A DNA stretch of 64,000 nt from Patescibacteria group bacterium (GTDB lineage: Bacteria > Patescibacteriota > Patescibacteriia > 2-01-FULL-39-33), in assembly GCA_041649575.1 (NCBI GenBank), contig JBAZMW010000002.1, positions 148,487-212,486 of the forward strand. The letters run 5' to 3'. This document shows positions 3,805 through 20,500 of this stretch, one piece after another. Position 1 is the first letter of the stretch; each line of letters begins with the position of its first letter. A program made the position numbers and the translations under genes. The notes beneath the pieces are model-generated. The model saw nothing but the letters and a program-made list of their open reading frames with translations. It was not told where the DNA came from and did not search any database.

Positions 3805-3816
3805 ATTTTCTAAAAA

Positions 3817-5418: not shown

Positions 5419-5486
5419 AGCTATAAGCTAAGAGAGCGGCGCAGGAGCCGCTTTTATTTATCTTTAAAATGTGTTAAATTTTTCAT

Positions 5487-6035
5487 ATGTGGTCTGTTGT
5501 TTGGCAAGCTTTTTATTTGGCCTGGCCGGCTTATTTGGCCAATATGGCGCCGGTTATTTTCAAAAATTTTGGTTGGTTAAAATTTTTGGATCGGCCGATA
5601 GATGGCGGCAAAAAATTCGGCGGTGATTATCTTTTTGGACGGCACAAGACTTGGCGCGGGCTCCTGGCCGCTATCGTCGGCGGAGCTTTGGCCAGCTTTT
5701 TTCAGCTGATTCTTTATCGTTATCAGTTTTTCAGTTCTTTTTCTCTTTTTGACTACAACCAGCAGTGGCTGCTGGTCGGTTTACTTGGTGGTCTGGGCGC
5801 TATCCTGGGTGATTTGGCAAAAAGTTTTTTCAAACGTCGCCTGAAGATCGCCTCGGGCCGGTCTTGGCCGGTTTTTGACCAGTTGGATTTTATTTTTGGT
5901 TTTTTTGTTTTTGTTTATCTAACAGTCAGGCCGCCACTATTAGTGGTTGTCGTTGTTTTTCTAATCACCCTTATTCTTCATCCTTTGACTAATGTTTTTG
6001 CTTATCTTTTGAGATTTAAAAAAGTTTGGTGGTAA
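5487..6035 (+). CDS. CDP-archaeol synthase-like (DUF46/CarS family) membrane protein
   Basis: N-terminus AYLANMAPVIFKN..GGKKFGGDYLFG.HKTWRG is typical of the CarS family. Polytopic and small. Confidence 0.55.
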   Translation: MWSVVWQAFYLAWPAYLANMAPVIFKNFGWLKFLDRPIDGGKKFGGDYLFGRHKTWRGLLAAIVGGALASFFQLILYRYQFFSSFSLFDYNQQWLLVGLLGGLGAILGDLAKSFFKRRLKIASGRSWPVFDQLDFIFGFFVFVYLTVRPPLLVVVVVFLITLILHPLTNVFAYLLRFKKVWW

Positions 6036-6934
6036 TCAAGATGAAAAAAGCGTTAATTATTTTTAACCCCACCGCCGGCCTGGTTAGCAGACAGGATGTC
6101 CGCGGGCTGGTGGAAAAAAAATTGAAAGAGCTGGGCTTCGACTGGGAATTGTTTTTGCTTAACTCGGAGTTTGAAAAAAATATCTCCAGCTTTGATTTTT
6201 CCGGGCTCAAGTTGGTGGTGGCGGTGGGCGGTGACGGCACGATCAAGGTGGCGGCCCGCACCATTTTAAAAAACAAACTGACTTGCCCGTTGGCGGTCGT
6301 GCCTTTTGGTTCGGCCAATGTGATAGCTTCCACCCTGGCCATCCCCATTAGTATTAAAGAAGCTTTAAAGCTTTTAGACAAACCTAGTACCAAAAAAATC
6401 GACGTCGGCCTGATTAATGGCAACCGTTATTTTTTGGTCGGTTTTTCCTTGGGCTATATCTCCGACATCGTTATTAATACCGGCAAAGGACTGAAAAATC
6501 GTTTTGGTATGCTGGGCTATTTTTGGCGATTATTTTTTAATAAAATCAGAATCTCCCGGCTTAAATTCAAAATCCAAACCCGCAACAGGACTTTCTGGCT
6601 CAAGGGCAATAGCCTGATAATTTTTAACGCTTTCAATTATTTTGGTTTCCGGCCCAAAAGGCCTATCAGCATCAGCGACGGCATTTTTAATCTCTACGTC
6701 ATTACTAATAAGACTTTTTTTTCTTTGATCCGGGCTGGATTTTATATCCTGCTCTACCACCAGCCGCCGCGTTATGTTTTTACTTTGGATAATAATTTCT
6801 TTAGAATAACTCTGCGCCGTCAACACTTTCTCAAAACCGCTCAAATCGACGGCGATCATCTCAATTTGCCGCGGGAAATAATCATCGAGGTATTGCCCCG
6901 GGCGCTAGAAATGGTGGTAAAAAATAATGGCTAA
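6026..6934 (+). CDS. Lipid kinase of the DAGK_cat family (YegS/BmrU-like)
   Basis: VAVGGDGTI diacylglycerol-kinase catalytic motif. Overlaps the upstream CarS-like gene by 10 nt. Confidence 0.55.
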   Translation: MVVIKMKKALIIFNPTAGLVSRQDVRGLVEKKLKELGFDWELFLLNSEFEKNISSFDFSGLKLVVAVGGDGTIKVAARTILKNKLTCPLAVVPFGSANVIASTLAIPISIKEALKLLDKPSTKKIDVGLINGNRYFLVGFSLGYISDIVINTGKGLKNRFGMLGYFWRLFFNKIRISRLKFKIQTRNRTFWLKGNSLIIFNAFNYFGFRPKRPISISDGIFNLYVITNKTFFSLIRAGFYILLYHQPPRYVFTLDNNFFRITLRRQHFLKTAQIDGDHLNLPREIIIEVLPRALEMVVKNNG

Positions 6935-8045
6935 AGAAAAAGTGGTAGTAGCGATGAGTGGTGGCGTTGATTCCTCCGTCGCTGCGGCCTTACTCAAAAA
7001 ACAAGACTATGAAGTGGTTGGAGTTTTTATGCAGTTTTGGTTTCCCTTGTCTCGCCAGGGACAAGCGGAGGCGGGCTCGTTTACTAAAAATAAAACCATT
7101 CAGTCAAGTATAAATACCAAGGTTTACGAAGAAAACCGCTGTTGTAGTTTGAGGTCTTGGAACGAAGCGCAACAAGTGGCGCGAATTCTGGATTTTCCTG
7201 TTCGCAAGGTAAATTTCGGACGGCAATTCAAAAAACTGATTGTTGATGAATTTTTGCGTGAGTACAGACTGGGTCGCACTCCCAACCCTTGTGTCGCTTG
7301 CAATAAATTTATCAAATTTGATTTGTTGTTGAAATATGCGAGAACTGTTTTTGGTGCGGATTATTTGGCTACCGGGCACTATGCTAGCTTGGTGTCATTC
7401 AAATTAGGACGGCCCAAAGACAGACAAAAAGACCAGACTTATTTTTTGTATAATTTAAAACAAGCACAATTAAAGCACCTGCTTTTTCCGCTTGGTAATT
7501 ATACTAAAAATGAGGTCAGAAAATTGGCTAAGAAGTTTAAGCTGCCGGTTTTTGATAAGCCGGACAGCCAGGAAATCTGTTTTGTGGGGCAGTCACATTA
7601 TGATTTTTTGAAGAAATATTTGCGCTTACAGCCGGGTAAAATCATTAGCAACCAAGGAAAAATATTGAGAACGCATCAGGGTCTGCCCTTGTATACCCTG
7701 GGCCAAAGGAGCGGCTTGGGGCTTTCGGGCGGACCGTGGTATGTGGCTGAAATGGATTATAAAAAAAATCGGCTGGTTGTCACCAAAAAAGAAAAGCAGT
7801 CAGCAATCTTTCGAAAAGAATTAGTCGCCCAAAAAGTTAATTGGCTTTTTGGCGAACCAAAATTTCCTCTCATATGCCAGGCGCAAATTCGTTATCATGC
7901 CCGGTCGGCCAGTTGTCTGGTGAAAAAGCAGGACCAAAAGATTGTTGTTGAATTCAGGCAAAAGCAGCGGGCGATAATGCCCGGCCAATCTGTGGTTTTT
8001 TATCAAGGTGATGAGCTGTTGGGCGGGGGAGTGATAGTGGGTTAG
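6927..8045 (+). CDS. mnmA: tRNA-specific 2-thiouridylase MnmA
   Basis: VVAMSGGVDSSVAA PP-loop, RTPNPCVACN, GADYLATGHYA and DQTYFLY motifs. Carries a ~24-aa insertion after the PP-loop. Confidence 0.85.
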   Translation: MAKEKVVVAMSGGVDSSVAAALLKKQDYEVVGVFMQFWFPLSRQGQAEAGSFTKNKTIQSSINTKVYEENRCCSLRSWNEAQQVARILDFPVRKVNFGRQFKKLIVDEFLREYRLGRTPNPCVACNKFIKFDLLLKYARTVFGADYLATGHYASLVSFKLGRPKDRQKDQTYFLYNLKQAQLKHLLFPLGNYTKNEVRKLAKKFKLPVFDKPDSQEICFVGQSHYDFLKKYLRLQPGKIISNQGKILRTHQGLPLYTLGQRSGLGLSGGPWYVAEMDYKKNRLVVTKKEKQSAIFRKELVAQKVNWLFGEPKFPLICQAQIRYHARSASCLVKKQDQKIVVEFRQKQRAIMPGQSVVFYQGDELLGGGVIVG

Positions 8046-8173
8046 TACAGAAGGAGTCAGGTTAATAATAAAAAAAGAAGACAAAGATCGGGCAGAAGAG
8101 GTTTTAGAAATTGGTAATAAGTAAATTATTAATAATAAACAAAGATTTAACGTTTGACATAATTTTGAAAGCA

Positions 8174-8205
8174 TAATAAGATAATATATCTTTCTCCAGA
8201 GAGAA
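8174..8205 (+). promoter_or_regulatory. Sigma-70-like promoter (TTGACA..N17..TAAGATAAT) for high-GC cassette A
   Basis: TTGACA at 8174 and a TAAGATAAT -10 region. The same TAAGATAAT motif recurs at 9196-9231. Confidence 0.4.
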
Positions 8206-8284
8206 TGATTCATAGTCCACTTGTGGTGGAAGATGATTGCACAAAAGACAAGGGAACAGGAACCCAAGAAGGAGGCTGTACGTC

Positions 8285-9106
8285 ATGATTAAAAGAACCG
8301 TCGTGGGGCGACTTTTCCGTGATTCTGGCGCATTCGGCCAGTTGACGCCGCCGCCCGGTCTGGAGGGAACCATTGGTGATCCCGATTGGGATTTCTTCTC
8401 GAAGCTGCCGCCGCGTTTTGATTTTCTGGAACTCTGCGATCGGGTCGGCCACGCTTTTGAGATGTCCGAGTCACCCATCTCGCCCTCCGACTGGGAGGAC
8501 CAGTTCGAAAGTCAGAAGGAGCGGCTGCTCGCTCTGTCCGGCTGCTCTGATGGCCATGGCATCGTGCTTTTGCCCGGCCTATTGCCAGTGGCTCCCGGTG
8601 ATTGTATCAGGAAGAGCCTTTTCAATGTCTACATCCCGGCGGTAGAACGCGGCTACGGGGCGATCTATCCCAAGAGGGCTTTTGAGGATTGGTGTGATGG
8701 TCGGGCGGACAGTGTCGCGGCTTTTCCCGGAGTGGGCCACGAGCATCTAATCCACCTCGCCAGTAAAGGCTTGGTCGCCGTCTTCGTCTACATCGCCCAT
8801 TGTATGCGGGCGTGGCCCGTCTCGACCCAGCGCCGACTGCCACGGAAGTTGTTCAAATCGAATTTCTCCTTGGCCGGCGGCTGTGACACGCTTTCCGTCC
8901 TGTCTCTGCACCCTGATATTCTCGCCGCTGGTTTCTGTAGCCCGACGATCGAGCTCAGTGCCTTGCAGACAGATTCGCCGCGCCTCTCGATCTGCGTGGT
9001 GCCAGAAGACAAACGCCTCAGACTCGACATCTGGGGTAATCCCGACGATTTCGCGCCTGAAGCTTCAGGAGGGCTTTCGTTCTGGAAGGAGCAACCTGTC
9101 TTCTAG
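8285..9106 (+). CDS. Hypothetical protein, high-GC, no recognised domain
   Basis: AAGGAGG sits 10 nt upstream of ATG 8285. GC is far above the flanks. The 273-aa product has no motif I recognise. Confidence 0.5.
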   Translation: MIKRTVVGRLFRDSGAFGQLTPPPGLEGTIGDPDWDFFSKLPPRFDFLELCDRVGHAFEMSESPISPSDWEDQFESQKERLLALSGCSDGHGIVLLPGLLPVAPGDCIRKSLFNVYIPAVERGYGAIYPKRAFEDWCDGRADSVAAFPGVGHEHLIHLASKGLVAVFVYIAHCMRAWPVSTQRRLPRKLFKSNFSLAGGCDTLSVLSLHPDILAAGFCSPTIELSALQTDSPRLSICVVPEDKRLRLDIWGNPDDFAPEASGGLSFWKEQPVF

Positions 9107-9277
9107 CTGGCGCGCCTTAGCCGGCTGCCGGAGTTCTCTAATTGGGGCTAGTGATCATACCAATCACCGGCCTCTGTTTTTTGTTTTAAGCGTAGTTGAC
9201 ATTGATAATGAAAACCCTTAAGATAATCTTTCGATCTTTCAAGTTAAACTAGTAAGGCAACCATGGAGGGAGCTGCC

Positions 9278-10015
9278 ATGTTTCTGGTATTATTTTCCAT
9301 TCTGGTCTACCCAGTGGCCTTTGTCACCTTCGTCGTTTGCGCCTCAATCTACCTGGCGTTTGTCTTTGTCTTCAAGTCGCTGGGCTGGGAGCTGCAGTAC
9401 CTGGGGCCGTTGGTTCGGTTTCTGGCTCGCGTGATTCTCTTGAGTTGTGGCCAATGGCTCAAGGTTGGGGGCAACTGGCCCTCTCCGACTATCGGGCCTT
9501 GCATCTTTCTCTTCAACCACAGCTCTATCCTGGATGCTCTGGTGGCTGGCGCGGTGCTAAAAGGACGGTTCACTGGCGTGGCTGCCCAGGAGTATTTCTT
9601 TTGGCCGCTGTGGGGAACCATTATGCGCTGGCACAATATCATTCCCATCAAGCGCAAGTGCCACGACGAGGCCATAGAGAGCATGCGGCGGGCGGAAGAG
9701 GCGATAAAAAACGGCTGGTCAATAGGCGGCTTTCCCGAGGGCACCAGAAGCAAGACAGGAGAGTTGCAGCCGTTCAAAAAGGGCCTTTTCTATGTGGCCA
9801 AGGCCACGGGCGCGCCGATCGTGGTGATAGCCATCAAGGGGGCGTACCGTGCCAAGAGTCGCGTCGGTTGGTGTGTTCGGCCGGGAGTGATAACGGCCAC
9901 TATCGGCAAACCCTGGACCCTGTGGTCTAACGGAAAGCAACGGTATGCGGCCTTGTCGGTGGAAGAGTTAAGGCAACTGGCCGAAGGGCTCATGGCAACC
10001 ATGCTCGAAAGTTGA
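9278..10015 (+). CDS. 1-acyl-sn-glycerol-3-phosphate acyltransferase-like (PlsC/LPLAT family), high-GC
   Basis: NHSSILD (HX4D) and FPEGTRS acyltransferase motifs. Has its own TTGACA..TAAGATAAT promoter at 9196-9231 and a GGAGGG SD before ATG 9278. Confidence 0.7.
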   Translation: MFLVLFSILVYPVAFVTFVVCASIYLAFVFVFKSLGWELQYLGPLVRFLARVILLSCGQWLKVGGNWPSPTIGPCIFLFNHSSILDALVAGAVLKGRFTGVAAQEYFFWPLWGTIMRWHNIIPIKRKCHDEAIESMRRAEEAIKNGWSIGGFPEGTRSKTGELQPFKKGLFYVAKATGAPIVVIAIKGAYRAKSRVGWCVRPGVITATIGKPWTLWSNGKQRYAALSVEELRQLAEGLMATMLES

Positions 10016-10046
10016 GCGTCAGGCGGTTCCCGCTAGCGTAAGTATC

Positions 10047-10078
10047 CGGCAACAGCGATGTTTGCCGGTTTTTCTTTA
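10047..10078 (+). terminator. Intrinsic terminator closing high-GC cassette A
   Basis: ccggcaacagcgatgtttgccgg hairpin followed by TTTTTCTTT. Confidence 0.6.
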
Positions 10079-10123
10079 CTTGATAAAATCTCCTAATTTG
10101 TTATAATTCAGTCAAACATTTTT

Positions 10124-11941
10124 ATGACCGCCAAAGAACTCAAACAAAAATATTTAGAATTTTTTGAGCGCCACGGCCACCAGATTATTCCTGGCGCCTC
10201 ACTGATTCCGGAGAACGACCCGACGGTTTTATTTACCACGGCCGGCATGCATCCGCTCGTGCCTTATCTGCTTGGCGAAAAGCATCCCGCCGGCACACGC
10301 CTGGCCGATGTCCAAAAATGCATCAGGACCGGCGACATCGACAGCGTGGGCGACGACTGGCATCTGACTTTTTTTGAAATGCTGGGCAATTGGTCGCTGG
10401 GCGACCCCAAGGATCCCAAAGGGATCGGGGCAGGTTATTTCAAAAAAGAAGCCATTGAGATGAGTTTTGAATTTTTAACCAAAGAGTTAAATATACCTTT
10501 GGAAAAATTGGCGGTTTCTTGCTTCGCCGGCGATGATGATGCGCCAAAAGACGAAGAATCGGCGAGTGCTTGGCGTTCGCTGGGGATCAGTGACAAACGG
10601 ATTGCTTTTTTGAGTAAGGAAGATAATTGGTGGCCGGCCGGTGGCAAAATGCCCGGTCCTCAAGGCCCGGACACGGAGATGTTTTATTGGAACTCGGATG
10701 AGTCGGCGCCGGAAGATTTCGACCCACAGGACAAGCGCTGGGTGGAAATCTGGAATGATGTTTTTATGCAATATAACAAGGCCGCCGACGGCAGCTACCA
10801 GCCGCTGGTGCAACAAAATGTCGATACCGGCATGGGATTGGAGCGTACCGTTGCTATCTTAAACGGCAAAAAAAGCGTCTACGAAATCGAGCCGCTCTTA
10901 ACCGTTTGTTCGCAAGTAACGGCTTTATTCGAGAGCACCCTGGAAGAACTGGAAGCCGAACAAACCAAAGCCGTCAGAATCATTGCCGATCATTTGCGCG
11001 CCGCCGTCTTTATTTTGGCCGAGAGCGTGGCGCCCTCCAACGTTGAACGTGGCTATGTCCTGCGCCGGCTGATTCGGCGCGCTATTCGCTATGGCAAGCA
11101 ACTGGGCATCAAAGACGCTTTCACTGCCAAAGTGGCCGAAGTGGTCATCGCGCAAATGGGCGGATTTTATAAGGAACTAAGAGAACAGCGAGATTTCATT
11201 ATCGATGAATTAAACAACGAAGAAGAAAAGTTTAGCGCTACTTTAGAAAACGGCTTAAAAAAGTTTGAAAAATTAAAAATTGACGAGCAAAAAAAGATCA
11301 GCGGCCAAGATGCTTTTATTCTTTTTTCCACTTATGGTTTCCCTTTGGAGATTACCAAAGACTTGGCCACCGAGCGCGGTTGGCAAGTTGACGAAGAAAA
11401 TTTTAATCTAGAATTTGCCAAGCATCAGGACATTTCCCGAAAAGGCGCCGAGCAAAAATTCAAGGGCGGTTTGGCCGATAATAGCGAAGTGACGGCCAAG
11501 ATGCATACCGCCACGCATTTGATGTTGGCGGCTTTGCGCCGGGTGTTGGGCGATCACGTTTACCAAAAAGGTGCCAACATCACCAGCGAGCGCATTCGCT
11601 TTGATTTTTCCCATGGCGAAAAAATGACAGCAGAACAAATCAAGCAAGTGGAAGACTTGGTCAATGAACAAATTAATAAAAAGATTCCCGTGGTCTGCGA
11701 AGAAATGACGCTAGAAGAAGCCAAGGAGAGGGGAGCGATGGGAGTTTTTAAAAATAAATACGGCGAGCGGGTTAAGGTTTATACCGTCGGCGATCCCTCG
11801 GCAGGATCGGGACAGGTTTTTTCCAAAGAGATTTGCGGCGGTCCGCATGCCGCCAACACCGGTGATCTGGGCCACTTCAAAATCCAAAAAGAAGAATCCA
11901 GCTCCGCCGGAGTCAGAAGAATTAAGGCGGTTCTGGAGTGA
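10124..11941 (+). CDS. alaS: Alanine--tRNA ligase, short form lacking the C-terminal C-Ala/DHHA1 region
   Basis: N-terminus LEFFERHGHQIIPGASLIPENDPTVLFTTAGM is AlaS class II. Editing-site HTATHLMLAALR and CGGPH are present. Only 605 aa versus ~870 typical. Confidence 0.85.
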   Translation: MTAKELKQKYLEFFERHGHQIIPGASLIPENDPTVLFTTAGMHPLVPYLLGEKHPAGTRLADVQKCIRTGDIDSVGDDWHLTFFEMLGNWSLGDPKDPKGIGAGYFKKEAIEMSFEFLTKELNIPLEKLAVSCFAGDDDAPKDEESASAWRSLGISDKRIAFLSKEDNWWPAGGKMPGPQGPDTEMFYWNSDESAPEDFDPQDKRWVEIWNDVFMQYNKAADGSYQPLVQQNVDTGMGLERTVAILNGKKSVYEIEPLLTVCSQVTALFESTLEELEAEQTKAVRIIADHLRAAVFILAESVAPSNVERGYVLRRLIRRAIRYGKQLGIKDAFTAKVAEVVIAQMGGFYKELREQRDFIIDELNNEEEKFSATLENGLKKFEKLKIDEQKKISGQDAFILFSTYGFPLEITKDLATERGWQVDEENFNLEFAKHQDISRKGAEQKFKGGLADNSEVTAKMHTATHLMLAALRRVLGDHVYQKGANITSERIRFDFSHGEKMTAEQIKQVEDLVNEQINKKIPVVCEEMTLEEAKERGAMGVFKNKYGERVKVYTVGDPSAGSGQVFSKEICGGPHAANTGDLGHFKIQKEESSSAGVRRIKAVLE

Positions 11942-12009
11942 GTTTTTGGTATAATATAGAGTTCTATAAAATAAAACATTTATTTGGAAAGGCAGTGTTG
12001 CCTTTTTGT

Positions 12010-12235
12010 TTTCATTTCTGCGAGCGCATGAAAATTTAGCAACAAAACAGGCGGAGTTCGAGCGTAAATTTTAATTTGTTTGAGCAAAAGCCACCAGTAA
12101 ACTGGTGGCTTTTGCGAGTTATTAAAATTAGCGAGAACAACCCTGTTTTGTCTAAATTTTCATTTAGCTCGCGCTTTTTTCTTTTGTGTCAGCTTTTCTT
12201 TTTACTAAAAAAAGAAAAGCTGACACAAAAAAAGA
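12010..12235. repeat. MITE-like repeat family, copy 1, with TIRs and a terminal perfect hairpin
   Basis: gcgagcgcatgaaaattt (12020) and its inverse aaattttcatttagctcgcgc (12154), plus the hairpin gtgtcagcttttcttttt-actaaaa-aaagaaaagctgacac. Related copies at 22158-22430 and 24650-24842. Confidence 0.6.
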
Positions 12236-12252
12236 GTATATTTAATAAACTA

Positions 12253-12283
12253 TTGACAGAATTCTAATTATATGCTATTATAA
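12253..12283 (+). promoter_or_regulatory. Consensus-like promoter for high-GC cassette B
   Basis: TTGACA-17 nt-TATTAT, then a ~70-nt UTR and GAAGGAG before ATG 12358. Confidence 0.45.
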
Positions 12284-12357
12284 TAAGAAGTACCTTTTAC
12301 CACTGTGAGCTGGCCGACTTAGTCGGAAAACTAAGAACGAAGAAGGAGAAACACATC

Positions 12358-12714
12358 ATGAGTCAAAAGACTGGCATACTATTGCTGCTGTTGCGGCCGA
12401 AAGACGGAGCGGCCGTCTTCTTGGACTGGACCCAGAACGCCCTCTTCATGCTGGAGAGCGCGAGTGCCACAGGCGTTTCGCCGTTGGCCGAGAGGGAAGA
12501 TCTGGCCAAGTGTATGAAGGGTTACGAGCTGTGTCCCGCGCTTGGCTACGGCCTATGCGCCAGGTGCCCTATGTCAGTCACCGGCGGTGCTCTCTGTAAT
12601 TTCTGGGCTTCCCAGGGATTCGCCCGCGTGCTCGACGCGCGCACAGAAGAGGAGGCGACCTTTGCCGATCTCGATGCCATGCGCGCCGCGCTCACCGCTT
12701 CCATTACCGGCTGA
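12358..12714 (+). CDS. Hypothetical Cys-containing small protein, high-GC
   Basis: Strong SD GAAGGAG. 118 aa with LCPALGYGLCARCP. GC is far above the flanks. Confidence 0.5.
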   Translation: MSQKTGILLLLLRPKDGAAVFLDWTQNALFMLESASATGVSPLAEREDLAKCMKGYELCPALGYGLCARCPMSVTGGALCNFWASQGFARVLDARTEEEATFADLDAMRAALTASITG

Positions 12715-12729
12715 AAGGAGAACACGGAC

Positions 12730-13107
12730 ATGCCAACGGTACAAGTGGCCGCGATAAATCTGCCGGCTGGCGCCTTCCTTTTCTTCTATCCGGAACACGC
12801 CACCCCCCAGTACCTTCTGTACAAGAATATCTGGCTGGGACAGACGATGTTCAGGCAGAAGCTAAACGAAGACGAACTTCAGGCTCTCCTCGCCGCCGGT
12901 CGAAATGGGTGGGAGGAAGTGGGCGAGGTGACTCGACGAGAGTTGCAGGCCGCGGATCTCTCTGGACTGGTTCGCAATCTCAAGACCAGGTGCGTCTGGC
13001 CCGAGAATGCGACCGCGTCAATCGCTGTCAGTCCTGACTGCAGCGGACGATGCTCGGAGTGTCGCGGGTGCTATAGCGACATGGAGCCAGTCACAGTAGA
13101 GCGATAG
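12730..13107 (+). CDS. Hypothetical Cys-rich small protein, high-GC
   Basis: SD AAAGGAG and a 15-nt gap from the upstream ORF, so probably an operon. C-terminal CSGRCSECRGC cluster. Confidence 0.5.
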   Translation: MPTVQVAAINLPAGAFLFFYPEHATPQYLLYKNIWLGQTMFRQKLNEDELQALLAAGRNGWEEVGEVTRRELQAADLSGLVRNLKTRCVWPENATASIAVSPDCSGRCSECRGCYSDMEPVTVER

Positions 13108-13125
13108 TCACACTGTGGTTCGTAT

Positions 13126-13172
13126 CCGGGGGTTGTTGGTCGAGAAAGACCGGCAACCCTCTTTTTTTTTAT
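13126..13172 (+). terminator. Intrinsic terminator closing cassette B
   Basis: 12-bp GC-rich stem (gggttgttggtc / gaccggcaaccc) followed by T9. Confidence 0.65.
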
Positions 13173-13378
13173 TTAAATTTTAGAATCCCATTATTTCCTT
13201 GACATTTTTCGGTTCTTGCTTTAAAATACTTAAAGTTGTTGACAAATTAATCAAAATTGCTATAATTAGCTTGAGCTTAAAAGTTTCAAAATTTAGCTTA
13301 ATTAGTGTAAAATTCTAGGCCGACTAGAAGCTTATAAGTTGCCAAGAATTTTATTTTTATCTAAAATATTTAAGCTGC

Positions 13379-13618
13379 ATGAATCAAAAACAAGGCAATA
13401 CCCCCGATTCCAAAGATTTTTTGGAAGTCGATGGAGAAGTACTGGAGCTTTTGCCGGCCGCCAGTTTCCGGGTGAAGCTGGAAAGCGGCCCGGAAATTTT
13501 GGCCCACTTGTCAGGCAAAATGAGGATGTTTAACATCCGCATCCTGCCCGGCGATCGCGTCAAGATCCAGATGACTCCTTACGATTTGACTCGGGGCAGG
13601 ATAATCTACCGTTATTAA
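13379..13618 (+). CDS. infA: Translation initiation factor IF-1
   Basis: S1-like OB fold; [52 protein letters not shown]. Confidence 0.9.
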
Positions 13619-13623
13619 AAATT

Positions 13624-13737
13624 ATGAAAGTCAGATCATCGGTAAAAAAAATCTGCAAAGATTGCAAGCTTGTCCGTCGCAAAAAACGGCTGGTTGTCAT
13701 TTGCAAAAACCCTAAACATAAACAAAGACAGGGCTAG
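13624..13737 (+). CDS. rpmJ: 50S ribosomal protein L36
   Basis: 37-aa product [37 protein letters not shown]. Below the ORF-track length cutoff, found by eye. Confidence 0.85.
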
Positions 13738-13836
13738 TGGCAGATGGCTTGTGGCATATAGCAAATAGTTAAAACTAAAAAACTATAAGCTATATACTAT
13801 ACGCTATAAGCCATTTGCTATACGCTAATAAATATT

Positions 13837-14229
13837 ATGGCTTTAAGAATTGCCGGTACAACTCTGCCAAACGACAAGCGCATCGAAGTGGGCTTGACTT
13901 ATATTTTCGGCATCGGCCGCAATTTGGCCGTCAAGATTTTGGCCGAAGCCAAAGTCAGTCCCGATATTCGCGTCAAGAACTTGAGCGAAGAGCAAGCCAA
14001 TAAGCTAAGAGTTATTGTCGAAAAGAATTATCGGGTTGAAGGTGAATTAAAAAGAGAAATTTTGGGTAATATCAAAAGATTAAAGGAAATCAAGGCTTAT
14101 CGCGGCACCCGTCATGCCAGAGGCTTGCCGGCTCGCGGCCAACGCACCAAGACCAACAATCGCACCGTGCGGGGCAATGTCAGAAAAACCATGGGTTCGG
14201 GCAAGAAACCGTCCGCTCAGAAGACTTAA
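13837..14229 (+). CDS. rpsM: 30S ribosomal protein S13
   Basis: [25 protein letters not shown] is an S13 signature. Confidence 0.9.
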
Positions 14230-14241
14230 TTTATTATCAAC

Positions 14242-14712
14242 ATGACCGAAGAAACAAATCCAATCGAAGAAGCTGCTAAGAGCGCTCCTGTGGCCGAAAA
14301 AGAAAGCGCGGCTGCTGGCAAAAAAGTTATCAAGCCCAGAGCCAAAAAAACCGTCGCTTATCGCCAGGTGAGCTCCGGCCGTGTTTATGTTAAGGCCAGC
14401 TACAACAATACCATGGTGACTTTTACCGATCAGAACGGCAATGTCTTGTCCTGGTCTTCGGCGGGCCAATGCGGCTTTAAGGGTCCCAAAAAAGCTACGC
14501 CCTATGCCGCCACCATTATCGTCAAAAATTGTTTTGAAAAGGTCAAAAATTACGGTTTGAAAGAAGTGGCAGTCTTTGTTAAAGGCATTGGCGGCGGCCG
14601 GGAAGCGGCCATTCGCGCCTTAAATGCCAACGGTTTGATTGTCACCGGCATTAAGGATGTCACTCCCATTCCTCACAACGGTTGCCGTCCCAAGAAACCG
14701 CGGCGCGTCTAA
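14242..14712 (+). CDS. rpsK: 30S ribosomal protein S11
   Basis: YVKASYNNTMVTFTDQNGN..FKG.KKATPYAA is an S11 signature, with an N-terminal extension. Confidence 0.9.
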   Translation: MTEETNPIEEAAKSAPVAEKESAAAGKKVIKPRAKKTVAYRQVSSGRVYVKASYNNTMVTFTDQNGNVLSWSSAGQCGFKGPKKATPYAATIIVKNCFEKVKNYGLKEVAVFVKGIGGGREAAIRALNANGLIVTGIKDVTPIPHNGCRPKKPRRV

Positions 14713-14727
14713 TCCTATAAATTATTT

Positions 14728-15330
14728 ATGAAAAAGAGTACTCACAAAGCCTGCCGTCGTTATGGCGTTAAACTGTGCCAATCGGATAAGTGCCCGGTCA
14801 TCAGACGCAATTATCCGCCGGGCATGCATGGTCCTAAAGGCGCCAGAAAACTCACCGAATACGGCCGGCAACTGGCCGAGAAGCAAAAAGCCAAGATTGT
14901 TTATGGTTTAAGAGAGAAACAGTTTGCCAATTATTTTGACGCCGCTTTTAAGAAAGTCGGCAACACCGCCGAACTGTTGTTTAAGCTTTTGGAAAGCCGT
15001 CTGGACAACGTGGTCTATCGGTTCGGCTTTGCCAAAACCAGGACTCAAGCCAGGCAACTGGTCAGCCACGGCCACGTTGAGGTTAACGGCAAGAAAGTCG
15101 ACATCCCTTCTTTTCAAACCAAAATCGGCGATGCCATTTCCCTTAGAGAAAAAACTTTGAAAACCAACGCTTTTGCCAATTTAGCCGAAGCGCTCAAAGA
15201 CAAAGAAGTCATGTCCTGGCTTAGTTTAGACGCCAAGGAACTAAAGGGTAAAATAGTCGATCTGCCTAAATTAGGCGAAGTGGAAATGAATATCGACTGG
15301 CGCATGATTGTCGAATTTTATTCCAAATAA
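14728..15330 (+). CDS. rpsD: 30S ribosomal protein S4
   Basis: S4 N-terminal zinc-finger-like region and S4 RNA-binding domain (LESRLDNVVYRFGFA.TRTQARQLVSHGH). Confidence 0.9.
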   Translation: MKKSTHKACRRYGVKLCQSDKCPVIRRNYPPGMHGPKGARKLTEYGRQLAEKQKAKIVYGLREKQFANYFDAAFKKVGNTAELLFKLLESRLDNVVYRFGFAKTRTQARQLVSHGHVEVNGKKVDIPSFQTKIGDAISLREKTLKTNAFANLAEALKDKEVMSWLSLDAKELKGKIVDLPKLGEVEMNIDWRMIVEFYSK

Positions 15331-15388
15331 AAAGTTATTTTAAAAATATTAAAATATAAATTAATTAGCTTAAGGAGGAATAAAAATT

Positions 15389-16261
15389 ATGAAATATATT
15401 TCCTTGCCAAAGAAATTCATTGTTGAGGAAGAGGCCAGAGGCACCAAGGCGAAGATCATCATCGAGCCCTGTTATCCCGGCTACGGCTTGACTTTGGGCA
15501 ATGCCTTAAGACGGGTGATGCTGTCTTCTCTGCCGGGCGGCGCTGTCACCGCTGTTAAAATCAAGGGAGTGGGTCATGAGTTTAGCGCCATAAAAAATGT
15601 TTCCGAAGACGTTGTCGATATTATTTTGAACTTAAAGCAGTTGCGCATCAAGGTTTATGCCGATGAACCGGTGACTTTGCAGCTCAAAGCCAGGGGCGAA
15701 AAAAAGGTTACTGGCGCCGATATCGAGCCTTCTTCCGACGCCGAGGTTATTAACAAAGATTGTTTTATTGCCAGCCTCAATGATAAAGACGGCGAGCTGG
15801 AGATGGAGCTGACTGTTGCCAAGGGAGTCGGCTATGTGCCTACCGAAGAACAAGTAAAAAGCAAGGGCAAAGGCGAGATTGGTTTGATTTTGGTCGATTC
15901 TATTTTTACGCCGGTTCTTAATGTTCGTCTGAACATCGAAGCCACTCGTGTTGGTCAGCGCGTCGATTATGACAAGATTGTTTTGGAAATAGAAACAGAC
16001 GGGACCATTTCCCCAGAAGAAGCGTTGCAGAAAGCCGCCGAAATCCTGGCCAATCAGTTCAGCTGGCTGATGGAAGGCGGCAGGCAGGAATTGGTCGAAG
16101 TTGATCTGGAAGCGCCGGTGGCTTTGCCGGAAAACAAAGAAGCGGAGTTATTAAAGGAAGTCGCTTCGTCAGACGGTTTGGACGAAAGCCAAGTAGCGGC
16201 CGAGACAGAAGTTGTCGAAGACAAACCCAAAAAACGAGGTCGTCCCAAGAAAGTTGAATAA
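15389..16261 (+). CDS. rpoA: DNA-directed RNA polymerase subunit alpha
   Basis: GYGLTLGNALRRVMLSSLPGGAV is the RpoA N-terminal domain signature. AAGGAGG SD. Confidence 0.9.
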   Translation: MKYISLPKKFIVEEEARGTKAKIIIEPCYPGYGLTLGNALRRVMLSSLPGGAVTAVKIKGVGHEFSAIKNVSEDVVDIILNLKQLRIKVYADEPVTLQLKARGEKKVTGADIEPSSDAEVINKDCFIASLNDKDGELEMELTVAKGVGYVPTEEQVKSKGKGEIGLILVDSIFTPVLNVRLNIEATRVGQRVDYDKIVLEIETDGTISPEEALQKAAEILANQFSWLMEGGRQELVEVDLEAPVALPENKEAELLKEVASSDGLDESQVAAETEVVEDKPKKRGRPKKVE

Positions 16262-16270
16262 AGCGTTTTT

Positions 16271-16621
16271 ATGAAACATCAGAAAAGAGGAAAAACTTTA
16301 GGCAGAACCAGATCGGTGCGTGAAGCGTTGATGAGAAATCTAACGACCAGTTTTATAATTTATGAAAAAATAAAAACCACCAAAGCCAAAGCCAAACTAT
16401 TGAGGCCTAAAGTGGAAAAGCTGATTACTTTGTCCAAGCATGACACCCTGACCAATCGGCGACAGGCCTTAAGGGTTTTATATTTTGATAAAGCGGTCAA
16501 AAAATTGTTTGAGGTTTTGGGTCCTCGGTATCAAGAAAGAAATAGCGGCTATACCAGGATTGTCAAGTTGCCGCCGCGCAAAGGCGATGCCGCTGAAATG
16601 GCAATTTTGGAATTAGTTTAA
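16271..16621 (+). CDS. rplQ: 50S ribosomal protein L17
   Basis: MKHQKRGKTLGRT..ALMRNL....EKI.TT is an L17 signature. Confidence 0.9.
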   Translation: MKHQKRGKTLGRTRSVREALMRNLTTSFIIYEKIKTTKAKAKLLRPKVEKLITLSKHDTLTNRRQALRVLYFDKAVKKLFEVLGPRYQERNSGYTRIVKLPPRKGDAAEMAILELV

Positions 16622-16628
16622 TTCAAGT

Positions 16629-16985
16629 ATGAAAAAAATAGAAAGAAAAATTCATTCACTAGATGCCAGCGGCCGGCCGCTGGGCCGATTGGCCAGTCAG
16701 GTGGCGATGATTTTGATGGGCAAAAATCGGCCCGATTATCAGCCCCAATTGGATAACGGCGATATAGTAGAAGTTGTTAATTGCGATAAAATCAAGCTGA
16801 CCGGTAAAAAGCTGGAGCAGAAGGAATATATCTGGCATTCTCATCATCCGGGCGGCTTAAAACGCAAGAAAGTCAAATTGGTTTTGGCGGCAGATCCGGG
16901 AGAAGTCTTGCGCCGGGCGGTAGTCGGCATGTTGCCCAAAAACCGGTTGCAACGGCCGCGGCTTAAACGCCTGAAAATAAAATAA
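16629..16985 (+). CDS. rplM: 50S ribosomal protein L13
   Basis: GRLASQVAMILMGKNRPDY is an L13 signature. Confidence 0.9.
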   Translation: MKKIERKIHSLDASGRPLGRLASQVAMILMGKNRPDYQPQLDNGDIVEVVNCDKIKLTGKKLEQKEYIWHSHHPGGLKRKKVKLVLAADPGEVLRRAVVGMLPKNRLQRPRLKRLKIK

Positions 16986-16992
16986 TTTTATT

Positions 16993-17433
16993 ATGGAGAA
17001 AGAAAAAAAAGAGAAAATAGAAAAAGAAAAGAAGGTGGTTAAGAATAAGTATCTTTATGCCAAAGGCGCCAGAAAAACCTCGGTAGCCCAGGTGCGTTTG
17101 TATAGAAAGGGTAGCGGCAATTTTGAAGTTAATGGCAAAAAGTTTAATGAATATTTTAGAACCGAAAATCTGCAGAGAATTTTTTTGGCCGCTTTGACTG
17201 CCGTCAACCATCTGCAAGATATTGACCTTACTATCAAAACCCAGGGCGGCGGAATCACCTCGCAGTCGCAGGCTTGCCGACATGGCATTGCTCGCGCCTT
17301 GGTTGAACTGGATAAGGAATTGCGGCCGCTCTTAAGAGCCGAAGGCTTTTTGACCCGCGATCCGCGCGTCAAAGAAAGAAAGAAACCGGGCCTGAAGCGC
17401 GCCAGAAAAGCGCCGCAATGGAGCAAACGTTAA
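16993..17433 (+). CDS. rpsI: 30S ribosomal protein S9
   Basis: C-terminal GFLTRDPRVKERKKPGLKRARKAPQWSKR is an S9 signature. Confidence 0.9.
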   Translation: MEKEKKEKIEKEKKVVKNKYLYAKGARKTSVAQVRLYRKGSGNFEVNGKKFNEYFRTENLQRIFLAALTAVNHLQDIDLTIKTQGGGITSQSQACRHGIARALVELDKELRPLLRAEGFLTRDPRVKERKKPGLKRARKAPQWSKR

Positions 17434-17446
17434 GGGAAAATTTATC

Positions 17447-17482
17447 AGCTGGGGCCAAAATTGGCCCCAGCTTTTTTTATTA
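17447..17482 (+). terminator. Intrinsic terminator after rpsI
   Basis: agctggggccaaaattggccccagct hairpin followed by T7. Confidence 0.7.
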
Positions 17483-17520
17483 TTGTTAATCTGTTAGAAT
17501 TACTTTAGTTTTAAGCAGCT

Positions 17521-20500
17521 ATGCCAGAAAAAGGACTATCTTTAAATGCCGAGCAACAAGCCGCGGTTCTTCATGATCAAGGGCCGCTTTTAATCGTGGC
17601 TGGCGCCGGCACCGGCAAAACCACGGTGATTACCGAAAGAATAGCTTATTTGATAAAAAACAAAAATTGCCGGCCGGAGGAAATTTTGGCCCTAACCTTT
17701 ACCGACAAAGCCGCCGGTGAAATGGAGGAGAGAGTCGATCGTCTTTTGCCTTACGGTTATGTCGATTTATGGATTCACACCTTTCACGCTTTTGCCGAAA
17801 AAGTTTTACACGACCACGGCCTGGAAATTGGTCTGCCCAATGATTTTAAGCTGCTCAGTACCACCGAGCAATGGCTTTTGGTTCGTCAAAATTTGGAAAA
17901 ATTTCCACTGGATTATTACCGGCCGCTGGGCAACCCGGTCAAGTTTATCCATGCCTTGTTAAAACATTTTTCGCGCGCCAAGGACGAGAATATTTCTCCC
18001 GCAGATTATCTAAATTATGTCCAGGAATTAAAGCTTAATGCCGATGGCGCAGAATTTATTAAAACCATCATCGACGAAGAGACCAAAAAACAATTAAGCA
18101 AAAAAGAACTTAAAGAAATTTTGGCCCAGGAAATCGCCAAGCAGACAGAGGTGGCCGAAGCCTATCACAGCTATCAGCAGTTGCTTTTGGCCAACAGCGC
18201 GCTGGATTTTGGCGATCTAATCAATTACGCCCTGAAACTCTTTACCACCAGAAAGAATATTCTTTTGAAATACCGCAACCAGTTCAAATATATTTTGGTT
18301 GATGAATTTCAAGACACCAATTACGCTCAATATGAATTATTGAAGCTTTTGGTCGGGCCTCAAAGCAACCTGACGGTGGTCGGCGATGACGACCAGTCGA
18401 TTTATAAGTTTCGGGGCGCTTCCATTTCCAATATTTTACAGTTCAAAGACGATTATCCGCAGGCCAAAGAAATTTTTCTCAACCAGAATTACCGCAGTTG
18501 TCAGAATATTTTAGATTTGGCTTATCGTTTTATCAAGCAGAACGATCCTTATCGTTTGGAAGTCAAGCTGGCTGGCGCCAGACAGCTTTCCAAAAAGCTC
18601 TCGGCTCAAAAGGACGGCCAAGGGGAAATCATTCATCTCCATGGCCGCCAGTTGGCCGACGAAGTGAAACTGGTGGTGGAAAAAATAATCAAGCTTTATA
18701 ACAACTCTCAAGCCGTCTCCTGGTCGGACTTCGCCGTTCTGGTTCGAGCCAATTCCAGCGCCGATGATTTTTGCTACGCTCTGGAAATGGCTGGCGTTCC
18801 TTTTAATTTTGTCGCTTCCAAGGGCCTCTATTCCAAGGCGGTGGTTTTGGATCTTTTGGCATACCTGAAACTATTGGACAATTATCACGAGGGGCCGGCT
18901 ATGTATCGCTTTTTGACGTTGCCGGTTTGGCAGATAAGTCAGAGCGATATCGTCAACTTGAATTATTGGGCCAAGAGGAAAGGCCAGTCGCTTTATGAGA
19001 CTCTCAAGCAGTCGGCGGCTCTAAACAATTTTACCCCAGATTTCCAGAGGCAGATTGGTCAGCTTTTGGCGGTGCTGGAGAAGCACGCCCAGCTGGTCAG
19101 AGAAAACAAAAAAACCACCGAAATTGTCCAAGCTTTTCTGGGCGACACCGGATATCTGAAGCAGCTTTCGGCCACGGATTCTCTGGCCAGTCGCGAACAG
19201 CTCGGCTATCTCAATCAGTTCTATAAAAAAATCCAAAATTTTGAACAGACTAGCGCCCACAACTCGGTTAAAGATTTTTTGTCTCTGGTGGAGCTGGAGC
19301 TGGAAGCTGGCGAAGAGGGGAGTTTGGAGGTCAACCTGGAGGAAGAAGGCCCCGATACCGTGAAAATCATGACCATTCATGCCGCCAAAGGCTTGGAATT
19401 CAAATATGTTTTTATCTCTAATTTGGTTGACAAGCGTCTGCCGACAATCGAGAGAAAAGACCCGATAGAATTGCCGGACAAGCTGGTCAAAGAAATTATT
19501 CCCGAGGGCGATATTCATTTACAGGAAGAGAGACGGCTGATGTATGTGGCCATGACTCGCGCCAAAGACGGTCTGTACCTGACTTCGGCCGCTGATTATG
19601 GCGGCGTCAGAAAAAAGAAACTCTCTCGTTTTCTGACGGAGCTTGCCGATTTGGGTTTGCCGCTGGCGGCCGAAATCAAAGCCGAGAGAGTCGGCGATTT
19701 GTCGGCCCGCCGACCTGCTCTAAGCGATAAGACCAGAGAAAAGGCCCCCGGCTTTTTACCCAGTAAATTCTCTTTTACCCAACTCAAGGCTTTTGAGAGC
19801 TGCCCTTATCAATATCGCTTCGCCCATGTCTTGAAGATCCCAGTCAAAGGCAAGGCCCAATTTTCTTTTGGCAAAAGCATGCACGGAACTTTGCAGAAAT
19901 TTTTTCTGTTGCTTAAGACCAAGCAAAACAAACGCCAGGGTGATTTGTTCGGCGCTAAAGATGGCAGTTCTGTCGAGGCCAGCGAAGCCGAGCTCTTAAA
20001 GATTTATCAAGAGACTTTTATCGACGATTGGTATGCCAGCAGAAAGGAGCGTGACGAATATTTTGCCAAAGGCCAGAGGGCGCTTAAAGGATTTTTTGCC
20101 CTGCACCAGCTCAACTGGCCAAGGGTGGCGGCGCTGGAACAGTCTTTTAATTTTAAGATTGCCGACGGCGGCGTTTATACTCTTTACGGTTTTATGGATC
20201 GTCTCGACGAGGTCGAGGGCGGCCTAAGAATCGTCGATTATAAAACCGGCCAGGCCAAAACCAAACTCTCCCCGGAAGACAAGGAACAGCTTTTGATTTA
20301 TCAGCTGGCGGCCGAAAAGGTGCTGGCCGAAAAAGTCAAAGAGTTGGTTTTCTATTATCTCGATGAAAACAAAGCGGTTTCTTTTTTGGGCGACGATAAA
20401 GAGCTGGCCGCTCTAAGGAAAAAAATCATGGCCATCATAGATGAGATCAAAAAAGGGGAATTCCCGCCCAAGCCGGGAGAAATCTGCAAGTATTGTGATT

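What the first reader, a model, noticed from the sequence alone, without database searches (positions are those of the whole stretch)
12253..13172. High-GC operon of two small Cys-rich proteins (118 and 125 aa) between alaS and infA
Both ORFs have strong SDs and lie 15 nt apart. Their Cys patterns (LCPALGYGLCARCP; CSGRCSECRGC) suggest metal-binding or redox peptides. The unit is bounded by a consensus promoter and a 12-bp-stem terminator. I do not recognise either protein.
Basis: seen in the sequence. Interest (0 to 1): 0.55.

Follow-up and report, generated by a model that had tools for sequence, protein, structure and literature searches.

The report
Fast-evolving cysteine-rich gene pair in Patescibacteria
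Two real but uncharacterised small cysteine-rich protein genes sit in a promoter-and-terminator-framed slot between alaS and infA of a Patescibacteria genome; relatives are known in only two other genomes, at the same site, where they are by far the most diverged and among the most GC-rich genes of the neighbourhood.

Summary
ORF1 is 12358-12714 (118 aa) and ORF2 is 12730-13107 (125 aa). Each has an AAGGAG Shine-Dalgarno (SD) site 9 nt upstream, and they lie 15 nt apart. They are framed by a TTGACA-17-TATTAT promoter and a 14-bp terminator. Their GC is 0.58-0.61 in a genome of about 0.43 GC, between alaS and infA.

Both are real genes. An exhaustive phmmer search found two ORF2 homologues (41-44% identity, E 1e-14 to 1e-18). 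Both sit in the same alaS-infA slot of related Patescibacteria contigs. One of those loci also carries an ORF1 homologue, but in the swapped order. Codon positions 1 and 2 are conserved while position 3 is random.

ORF2 keeps four invariant C-terminal cysteines (C-x-G-x(1-2)-C-x2-C-x(2-4)-C). The ORF1 family keeps a 5-Cys cluster before a CNFW motif. All five proteins are acidic and have no signal peptide.

No characterised family explains either protein. A weak MbnC-like hit for ORF2 did not strengthen with a family profile.

Between two otherwise close genomes, ORF2 is 32% identical while 20 neighbouring genes are 64-97.5% identical. It still stays GC-rich.

Best reading: a lineage-restricted, rapidly diverging accessory cassette that encodes probable metal-binding (Zn or Fe-S) proteins. 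The function is unproven. ORF2 is missing from the NCBI, ENA and JGI annotations.

The parts
12253..12281 (+). Sigma-70-type promoter of the cassette (TTGACA-17-TATTAT, with TG before the -10 box).
   Evidence: 11 of 12 matches. The homologous promoter is present at the same place in L083 and L084.
12282..12357 (+). 5' UTR of about 70 nt with a small hairpin (ggccgacttagtcgg) and the SD AAGGAG at 12343-12348.
   Evidence: The UTR is not alignable with L083 or L084 beyond about 20 nt after the -10 box.
12358..12714 (+). ORF1: 118 aa, acidic (pI 4.8), with 5 Cys at positions 52, 59, 67, 70 and 80, followed by the CNFWxxQxFxR motif. NCBI locus tag WC518_01890, annotated as hypothetical protein.
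   Evidence: The homologue P0007 in L083 gives blastp E 9e-5 with a colinear alignment. Codon-position identity is 0.44/0.51/0.34.
12715..12720 (+). SD (AAGGAG) of ORF2, immediately after the ORF1 stop codon.
12730..13107 (+). ORF2: 125 aa, acidic (pI 5.2). It has an N-terminal alpha/beta region and then an invariant C104-x-G-x-C108-x2-C111-x2-C114 cluster. It is not annotated in the NCBI, ENA or JGI records.
   Evidence: Homologues are P0003 (E 9e-19) and P0004 (E 1.4e-14). Codon-position identity for positions 1/2/3 is 0.55/0.65/0.42 and 0.56/0.55/0.31.
13128..13170 (+). Intrinsic terminator: 14-pair stem, 6-nt loop, T9.
   Evidence: Analogous GC-rich hairpins end the cassette in L083, L084 and L005.

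Best explanation
The region is a self-contained, strongly signalled transcription unit (own promoter, two SD-led cistrons, own terminator). It encodes two lineage-restricted, soluble, acidic small proteins, each with a cluster of about five cysteines. It occupies a conserved 'slot' between alaS and the infA/ribosomal-protein operon in a small Patescibacteria clade. In more distant relatives alaS and infA are directly adjacent, so the slot content is an accessory insertion. Inferred mechanism: the four invariant C-terminal cysteines of ORF2 (C-x-G-x(1-2)-C-x-[DE]-C-x(2-4)-C) ligate one metal centre, either Zn2+ or an Fe-S cluster. This centre sits on a flexible tail behind an alpha/beta domain of about 95 aa. 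ORF1 carries a second Cys cluster and may act together with ORF2. The proteins would then serve as cytoplasmic metal- or redox-dependent accessory factors rather than core housekeeping parts. The cassette diverges far faster than its neighbours, or is exchanged by recombination within the conserved promoter/terminator frame. Shown: the genes are real, the family exists, synteny holds, the cysteines are conserved, divergence is extreme and GC is anomalous. Inferred: metal binding, interaction between the two proteins, and accessory or conflict-type biology.
For: Gene reality and family. Exhaustive phmmer over 1.84e9 representatives finds P0003 and P0004. Both lie between alaS and infA on 0.5-0.8 Mb Patescibacteria contigs. 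L083 also has an ORF1 homologue. Codon positions 1 and 2 are conserved while position 3 is near random. GC3 > GC1 > GC2 holds in the called frame.

Frame conservation. The promoter, terminator and tandem infA promoters are present in all loci.

Cys cluster. C104, G106, C108, C111 and C114 are invariant, among only 30 invariant columns. Cys content is 4% against a 0.97% background.

Acidic proteins with no long hydrophobic N-terminal stretch (the absence of a signal peptide was judged by eye, no predictor was run).

Accessory and fast-evolving. ORF2h is 32% identical between L083 and L084, against 64-97.5% for 20 syntenic genes. The cassette is absent from other relatives, where the alaS-infA gap is 99-200 nt. 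An unrelated 103-aa Cys-rich ORF sits in the same slot in L005.
Against: No experimental or structural evidence exists for metal binding. The AlphaFold2 models had pLDDT 46-49, and Foldseek found nothing with E < 0.9. Cys spacing varies between homologues. The middle cysteines of ORF1 are not positionally conserved. ORF2 occurs without ORF1 in L084, so an obligate pair is unlikely. ORF2 was skipped by three annotation pipelines. Only 3 ORF2 and 2 ORF1 sequences are known, so conservation statistics are thin. Synonymous sites between L083 and L084 are nearly saturated, so 'extreme divergence' could simply reflect weak constraint.
Confidence: 0.55

Rival explanations
1. This is a remnant of a RiPP-type system. 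ORF2 would be an MbnC-like partner or recognition protein of the MNIO/DUF692 world. The Cys-rich stretches (ORF1, or ORF2's own tail) would be the substrates whose cysteines get modified.
For: ORF2 residues 28-70 hit TIGR04061 (E 0.0076), TIGR04160 MbnC (E 0.021) and two PDB MbnC chains (E 0.027 and 0.51), all in the same register with the motif WLxQxxFRxxLxEDxL. MbnBC acts on cysteines of a precursor peptide (PMC8888699).
Against: The scores are 14-18 bits against curated cut-offs of 124-185. A 3-sequence family profile does not improve the hit (E 0.058). Neither homologue hits these families on its own. Fusing ORF1 and ORF2 does not extend the match. No DUF692/MbnB gene is called within +/-10 kb here, in L083 or in L084. 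ORF2 is 125 aa against 180-195 aa for MbnC.
Confidence: 0.07
2. This is a novel two-gene conflict module, such as a toxin-antitoxin or a phage-defence/anti-defence pair, carried on a small mobile islet.
For: The unit consists of two adjacent genes of about 120 aa each with their own promoter. Its distribution is patchy. The gene order is reversed in L083 and one gene occurs alone in L084. GC and SD usage are atypical for the host. It is the fastest-diverging gene of the neighbourhood.
Against: There are no PADLOC, Pfam or PHROGs hits for any of the five proteins. Both partners are acidic (pI 4.8-5.2), with no basic toxin or DNA-binding antitoxin signature. There are no matches in IMG/VR, INPHARED phages or PLSDB plasmids. 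No integrase, transposase or flanking repeats bound the cassette.
Confidence: 0.15
3. These are decaying horizontally acquired DNA or chance ORFs in a GC-rich insert, with no function. The GC-rich segment might alternatively be a structured RNA.
For: ORF lengths are not significant in shuffles. ORF2 is not called by NCBI, ENA or JGI. Divergence is near-neutral in magnitude.
Against: Protein-level homologues are detectable while the DNA is not alignable. Identity at codon positions 1 and 2 exceeds that at position 3. The Cys cluster is invariant. ORFs, SD sites, promoter and terminator are intact in three or four genomes. There is no Rfam match inside the island even at E <= 1.
Confidence: 0.08

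Closest known systems
MbnC / TIGR04061 (partner proteins of MNIO/DUF692 enzymes in methanobactin-type RiPP pathways)
   Same: They share a two-helix motif of about 40 residues (WLxQxxFRxxLxEDxL), and both are associated with cysteine-rich peptides.
   Different: The hit is an order of magnitude below family cut-offs. It is not reinforced by the family profile or by the homologues. There is no MbnB partner gene. ORF2 is shorter and carries its own C-terminal C4 cluster.
Small C4 zinc-knuckle or zinc-ribbon proteins, and small Fe-S proteins such as WhiB-like [4Fe-4S] proteins (comparison from general knowledge)
   Same: They are soluble proteins of about 100-125 aa with four invariant, closely spaced cysteines. 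ORF2 has a CxxC core.
   Different: The spacing C-x(3-4)-C-x2-C-x(2-4)-C matches no Pfam zinc-finger or Fe-S model. The Wbl signature (C-x14-22-C-x2-C-x5-C plus a GVWGG turn) is absent.
Replacement-type flexible genomic islets (same chromosomal site, highly divergent content between related strains)
   Same: The flanks and regulatory frame are conserved while the interior is not alignable between L083 and L084. L005 has different content at the same site. GC composition is atypical.
   Different: The unit is tiny (0.4-0.8 kb, one or two genes). Its content is still distantly homologous in three genomes. No mobility genes are present. With neutral sites near saturation, in-situ divergence cannot be excluded.
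Type II toxin-antitoxin modules
   Same: They consist of two small adjacent genes with their own promoter, a patchy distribution and order reversal.
   Different: No TA domain is detected, both proteins are acidic, and ORF2 occurs alone in one genome.

Membership tests
MbnC / TIGR04160 and TIGR04061 (MNIO partner proteins) | The whole-protein HMM score reaches the curated cut-off (185 and 124 bits). | tested here: not met
   The scores are 14.3 and 16.1 bits. The profile against PDB MbnC gives 16.8 bits, E 0.058.
MbnC / TIGR04160 and TIGR04061 (MNIO partner proteins) | An adjacent DUF692/MbnB (MNIO) enzyme gene. | tested here: not met
   No such Pfam family appears among the genes called within +/-10 kb in L001, L083 or L084. 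The rest of the genome was not examined.
MbnC / TIGR04160 and TIGR04061 (MNIO partner proteins) | The similarity is shared by other members of the query's own family. | tested here: not met
   P0003 and P0004 do not hit either model at E <= 10.
MbnC / TIGR04160 and TIGR04061 (MNIO partner proteins) | [quoted passage not shown] | tested here: inconclusive
   The AlphaFold2 model has pLDDT 48.6, and Foldseek against the PDB gives no hit with E < 0.9.
C4 zinc-finger / small Fe-S proteins | Four conserved Cys ligands. | tested here: met
   C104, C108, C111 and C114 are invariant in 3 of 3 sequences.
C4 zinc-finger / small Fe-S proteins | A match to a described zinc-finger or Fe-S domain model. | tested here: not met
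   There are no Pfam or NCBIfam hits for any family member.
C4 zinc-finger / small Fe-S proteins | Bound metal. | not testable with these tools
   This needs ICP-MS or UV-vis on purified protein.
Type II toxin-antitoxin / defence systems | Recognisable toxin, antitoxin or defence domains. | tested here: not met
   PADLOC, Pfam and PHROGs are all negative for all five proteins.
Type II toxin-antitoxin / defence systems | Growth arrest by one partner, relieved by the other. | not testable with these tools
   This needs an expression experiment.
Integron-type gene cassette | An attC-like recombination site and a nearby integrase. | tested here: not met
   The intergenic spacers are only 15 nt and 52 nt. 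No integrase is called within +/-10 kb. No flanking repeats beyond chance were found.

The most novel reading that the evidence does not exclude
A Patescibacteria clade maintains a dedicated, strongly expressed 'slot' between alaS and infA, with a conserved promoter and terminator frame. The content of the slot is small acidic proteins with cysteine clusters from new families. This content turns over or is exchanged far faster than the rest of the genome. It also stays GC-rich (GC3 0.6-0.7) even though synonymous sites are saturated. That combination would point to cassette exchange or GC-biased conversion at a recombination hot spot, and to a new metalloprotein family involved in interaction with hosts, phages or competitors.
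Probability: 0.2. Interest if true: 0.7.

Novelty: new variant of a known kind. Interest (0 to 1): 0.45.

Why it matters
Patescibacteria (the Candidate Phyla Radiation, CPR) have tiny genomes full of unannotated genes, and most are treated as noise. Here an 'ORFan' pair is shown to belong to a real, syntenic and very rare family with an invariant four-cysteine site. One member is missing from the public annotation.

The locus gives a compact, testable case of three open issues. First, what small Cys-rich proteins do in ultra-reduced symbionts. Second, how a single intergenic site can host hypervariable content within a conserved regulatory frame. Third, what force keeps particular genes GC-rich in an AT-biased genome.

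If the proteins bind metal or mediate host or phage interactions, they define new families. If not, the result is a cautionary, well-documented example of a fast-evolving accessory cassette.

Tried and rejected
1. Word-indexed searches of 5.8e9 proteins with each ORF found only self-hits. A search with the ORF1 alignment found only the two known members.

2. Single-sequence AlphaFold2 for both ORFs gave pLDDT 46 and 49. Foldseek of the ORF2 model against the PDB was meaningless.

3. Read-through, selenocysteine or split-gene idea. The ORFs share a frame across a single TGA. The fused sequence does not improve any family hit. TGA is an ordinary stop here (8 of 60 ORFs). In L083 the order is reversed and the frames differ. 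Rejected.

4. Structured-RNA reading of the GC island. Rfam finds nothing inside it, and the sub-threshold 'miRNA' hits all fall on the AT-rich hairpin at 12175-12237. Rejected.

5. MbnC lead: followed up with the family profile and the homologues, and not reinforced.

6. Paralogy of ORF1 and ORF2. blastp finds nothing and hhalign gives a probability of 0.4%. The only similarity is a motif resemblance (NIWLGQxxFR against CNFWxxQxFxR).

7. Relation of the L005 and L010 slot ORFs to ORF1 or ORF2. None was found by blastp or HMM.

8. Viral, phage and plasmid origin: no matches.

9. An exact-sequence look-up of IF-1 to find strain-level relatives returned only the same genome.

ORF1 therefore never had an exhaustive search.

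11. Literature searches for Cys-rich small proteins in Patescibacteria and for the run accession found nothing.

Full report
OBSERVATION. ORF1 (12358-12714, 118 aa) and ORF2 (12730-13107, 125 aa) lie on the + strand, 15 nt apart. Each is preceded by AAGGAG 9 nt before its ATG. A TTGACA-17-TATTAT promoter sits at 12253-12281. A 14-pair hairpin followed by T9 sits at 13128-13170; it folds at -26.4 kcal/mol with z = -4.9. Upstream is a 605-aa AlaRS and downstream is IF-1. The two ORFs have GC 0.611 and 0.582. Nearly all other ORFs of the window have 0.36-0.49, and the flanking spacers fall to 0.27-0.33. GC3 > GC1 > GC2 holds in the called frame. Cysteine makes up 4.2% and 4.0% of the residues, against 0.97% in the other 58 ORFs.

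ORF length alone proves nothing at this GC. In dinucleotide shuffles of the island, 61% contain an open stretch of at least 118 codons, and 10% contain two on one strand.

SOURCE AND ANNOTATION. The sequence is identical to a 235-kb contig of a Patescibacteria MAG (ENA ERZ27247363 k141_2894300). It also matches an independently assembled 1.5-kb Logan contig that spans the whole island and both AT-rich flanks, so the island is not an assembly chimera. ORF1 is NCBI WC518_01890, annotated as 'hypothetical protein'. ORF2 is absent from the NCBI, ENA and JGI gene sets and was called only on the Logan contig.

ARE THEY GENES? Word-indexed searches of 5.8e9 proteins returned only self-hits. The exhaustive phmmer search with ORF2 over 1.84e9 representatives returned two homologues:
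- P0003: 125 aa, 44% identity, E 9e-19.
- P0004: 124 aa, 41% identity, E 1.4e-14.

Two further hits (P0005, P0006) are long tandem-repeat proteins whose score is summed over seven weak stretches. I disregard them.

P0003 and P0004 are each encoded between alaS and infA on large Patescibacteria contigs:
- L083 (802 kb): alaS - ORF2h - 121-aa gene - infA.
- L084 (505 kb, same sample as the window): alaS - ORF2h - infA.

The 121-aa gene of L083 (P0007) is a homologue of ORF1. Pairwise blastp gives E 9e-5, with a colinear alignment at 25-30% identity and a shared CNFWxxQxFxR motif.

In codon-aware alignments, nucleotide identity is 0.47-0.56 at position 1 and 0.50-0.65 at position 2. At position 3 it is only 0.31-0.42, with a composition-based expectation of about 0.28. 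The ORF1 pair shows the same pattern. Protein-level conservation without alignable DNA means both ORFs are under selection as proteins.

No further members were found in:
- 80 related alaS loci;
- JGI metagenome contigs, apart from a duplicate of L084;
- IMG/VR;
- phage or plasmid records.

WHAT THE PROTEINS LOOK LIKE. The three ORF2 sequences share 30 invariant columns. These include MP at the N-terminus, FLF, LYxxIxxGQxxF, WExV and WP, plus every residue of the C-terminal pattern C104-x-G106-x-C108-x2-C111-x(2-4)-C114. The ORF1 pair shares a hydrophobic N-terminal segment. It also shares a cluster of five cysteines within 20-29 residues, of which only the first, second and last align. The CNFW motif and an acidic C-terminal helix follow. 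All five proteins are acidic (pI 4.8-5.2), have 5-6 Cys, and lack a long hydrophobic N-terminal segment (the lack of a signal peptide was judged by eye).

Single-sequence AlphaFold2 models were of low confidence (pLDDT 45.7 and 48.6). Foldseek found nothing below E 0.9.

KNOWN FAMILIES. Pfam, NCBIfam, PHROGs, PADLOC and PDB sequence searches give nothing above threshold for any member.

The one lead concerned ORF2 residues 28-70. They hit TIGR04061 (E 0.0076), MbnC TIGR04160 (E 0.021) and two MbnC chains in the PDB (E 0.027 and 0.51) in a consistent register. MbnC is the partner of the iron enzyme MbnB, which modifies cysteines of a precursor peptide (PMC8888699), so the lead was attractive. 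It failed four follow-up tests:
- The family profile does not raise the score (16.8 bits, E 0.058).
- Neither homologue hits these models.
- Fusing ORF1 and ORF2 does not extend the match.
- No DUF692 gene is called within 10 kb in any of the three loci.

I treat the MbnC hit as a probable chance motif match.

THE LOCUS AS A SLOT. In more distant Patescibacteria, alaS is followed directly by infA, with a gap of 99-204 nt in L013, L049, L065 and L066. Other lineages have unrelated insertions at this point. In the window, L083 and L084, the same regulatory frame is present:
- the alaS terminator;
- a TTGACA-17-TATAyT promoter;
- the cassette;
- a 13-14-bp GC-rich hairpin;
- two tandem infA promoters.

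L005 (AlaRS 65% identical) has the same frame. Its cassette is a 103-aa acidic protein with six Cys, and it is GC-elevated (0.52 against 0.42). It shows no detectable similarity to ORF1 or ORF2.

A DNA alignment of L083 and L084 shows 75-83% identity in the 3' end of alaS and 88-94% from the terminator tail through infA. It shows random-level identity from about 20 nt after the -10 box to the terminator.

Across 21 syntenic genes of these two genomes, ORF2h is the outlier at 32% amino-acid identity. The other genes are 64-97.5% identical, and ribosomal proteins are 90-95% identical. The window's ORF2 is about equally distant from both (39-41%), although the window genome is the outgroup.

REPLACEMENT OR IN-SITU DIVERGENCE? 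Fourfold synonymous sites between L083 and L084 are close to saturation, with identity 0.35-0.56 in most genes. A weakly constrained protein could therefore reach about 32% identity without replacement, and I cannot separate the two scenarios.

One fact argues against simple in-situ drift. ORF2 keeps GC3 at 0.61-0.67 in all three genomes, and ORF1 has GC3 0.72. Neighbouring genes have GC3 0.28-0.55 and spacers have GC of about 0.3. plsC, the second most diverged gene, behaves the same way (GC3 0.60-0.70).

The SD sites are also atypical for the host. Only 5 of 19 annotated starts in window positions 3.8-22 kb carry AAGGAG. Three of those five belong to GC-rich orphans: 8285, 12358 and 12730.

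Three explanations remain open: recurrent import or allelic exchange from a GC-richer pool, GC-biased conversion at a recombination-prone site, or gene-specific selection on composition.

MECHANISM (best estimate). The cassette is transcribed on its own from a near-consensus promoter and is translated from two strong SD sites. It yields two cytoplasmic acidic proteins. ORF2's invariant, closely spaced C4 site, with a conserved acidic residue inside its CxxC, most plausibly binds one metal centre (Zn2+ or Fe-S). ORF1's Cys cluster may do likewise. The two proteins may cooperate, but ORF2 can stand alone, as in L084. The unit is dispensable within the clade and evolves quickly, so it is accessory.

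Rivals, with my confidence in each:
- a novel conflict or toxin-antitoxin-like pair (0.15);
- an MbnC-like RiPP remnant (0.07);
- non-functional DNA (0.08).

NOVELTY AND SCORE. Neither protein belongs to any described family. The ORF2 family currently has three members and the ORF1 family has two, all annotated as hypothetical or not annotated at all. Small Cys-cluster proteins and hypervariable islets are both known kinds of thing, so I rate this as a new variant of a known kind. Interest is moderate at 0.45. The genes are real, the syntenic-slot pattern and the GC3 paradox are unusual, but the function remains inferential and the family is tiny.

Noticed in passing
window 12020-12237 and 24657-24721: The alaS terminator and the cassette promoter are separated by a near-perfect long hairpin of about 150 nt (12020-12173) and a 25-bp perfect hairpin (12179-12233). 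The combined free energy is -110 kcal/mol with z = -14. A 66-nt piece recurs 95% identical and inverted at 24657-24721. The element is absent from L083 and L084. It looks like a repeated palindromic intergenic element (MITE/REP-like). The Rfam 'miRNA' sub-threshold hits there are hairpin artefacts.
   Followed up: partly
window 8237-9106 (annotated start 8285): A GC-rich (0.58) orphan ORF of 273-289 aa with an AAGGAG SD lies between mnmA and plsC. It has no Pfam, NCBIfam, PHROGs or PADLOC hit. It is absent from L083, L084 and L003, where mnmA is followed directly by plsC or alaS.
   Followed up: partly
window 9263-10015; L083 7173-7940; L084 7164-7934: The PlsC-type acyltransferase is GC-rich (0.53-0.57, GC3 0.60-0.70) in all three genomes. 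It is the second most diverged syntenic gene: 64% identical between L083 and L084, and only 32-35% identical to the window copy, against 73% for AlaRS.
   Followed up: partly
window 32453-32950 (-), 40756-41259 (+), 40300-40600: There are further GC-rich (0.57-0.60) islands. One is a 165-aa orphan between serS and an ftsQ-like gene. Another is a 167-aa ORF whose N-terminus looks like a signal peptide. A third is a stretch of about 300 nt at GC 0.58 with no long ORF and no Rfam hit, which could be a non-coding RNA.
   Followed up: no
window 12358-13107: ORF1 and ORF2 are in the same reading frame, separated only by TGA plus five codons (KENTD). The arrangement is not conserved in L083 (reversed order, different frames), and a fused query hits nothing better.
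   Followed up: yes
window 3800-22000 (annotated starts): Only 5 of 19 annotated start codons are preceded by AAGGAG. Three of the five belong to GC-rich orphan genes (8285, 12358, 12730). The others are rpoA and a 126-aa ORF at 21777.
   Followed up: partly
L005 7868-8179: A different 103-aa acidic ORF with six Cys occupies the same promoter/terminator-framed alaS-infA slot in a genome whose AlaRS is 65% identical. It is GC-elevated and annotated MDX9893026.1, hypothetical. It has no detectable similarity to ORF1 or ORF2.
   Followed up: partly
window 10124-11941: The AlaRS is a short 605-aa form (catalytic plus tRNA_SAD domains only). Its best matches at 55-62% identity are spread over Patescibacteria, Lentisphaeria, Spirochaetes, Clostridia and others. 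This suggests a widely shared or transferred short AlaRS type.
   Followed up: no
window 23570-25345 and 30084-30650: These are unusually AT-rich genes (GC 0.29-0.36). The 188-aa ORF at 30084-30650 has 12 Cys (6.4%), the highest Cys fraction in the window.
   Followed up: no
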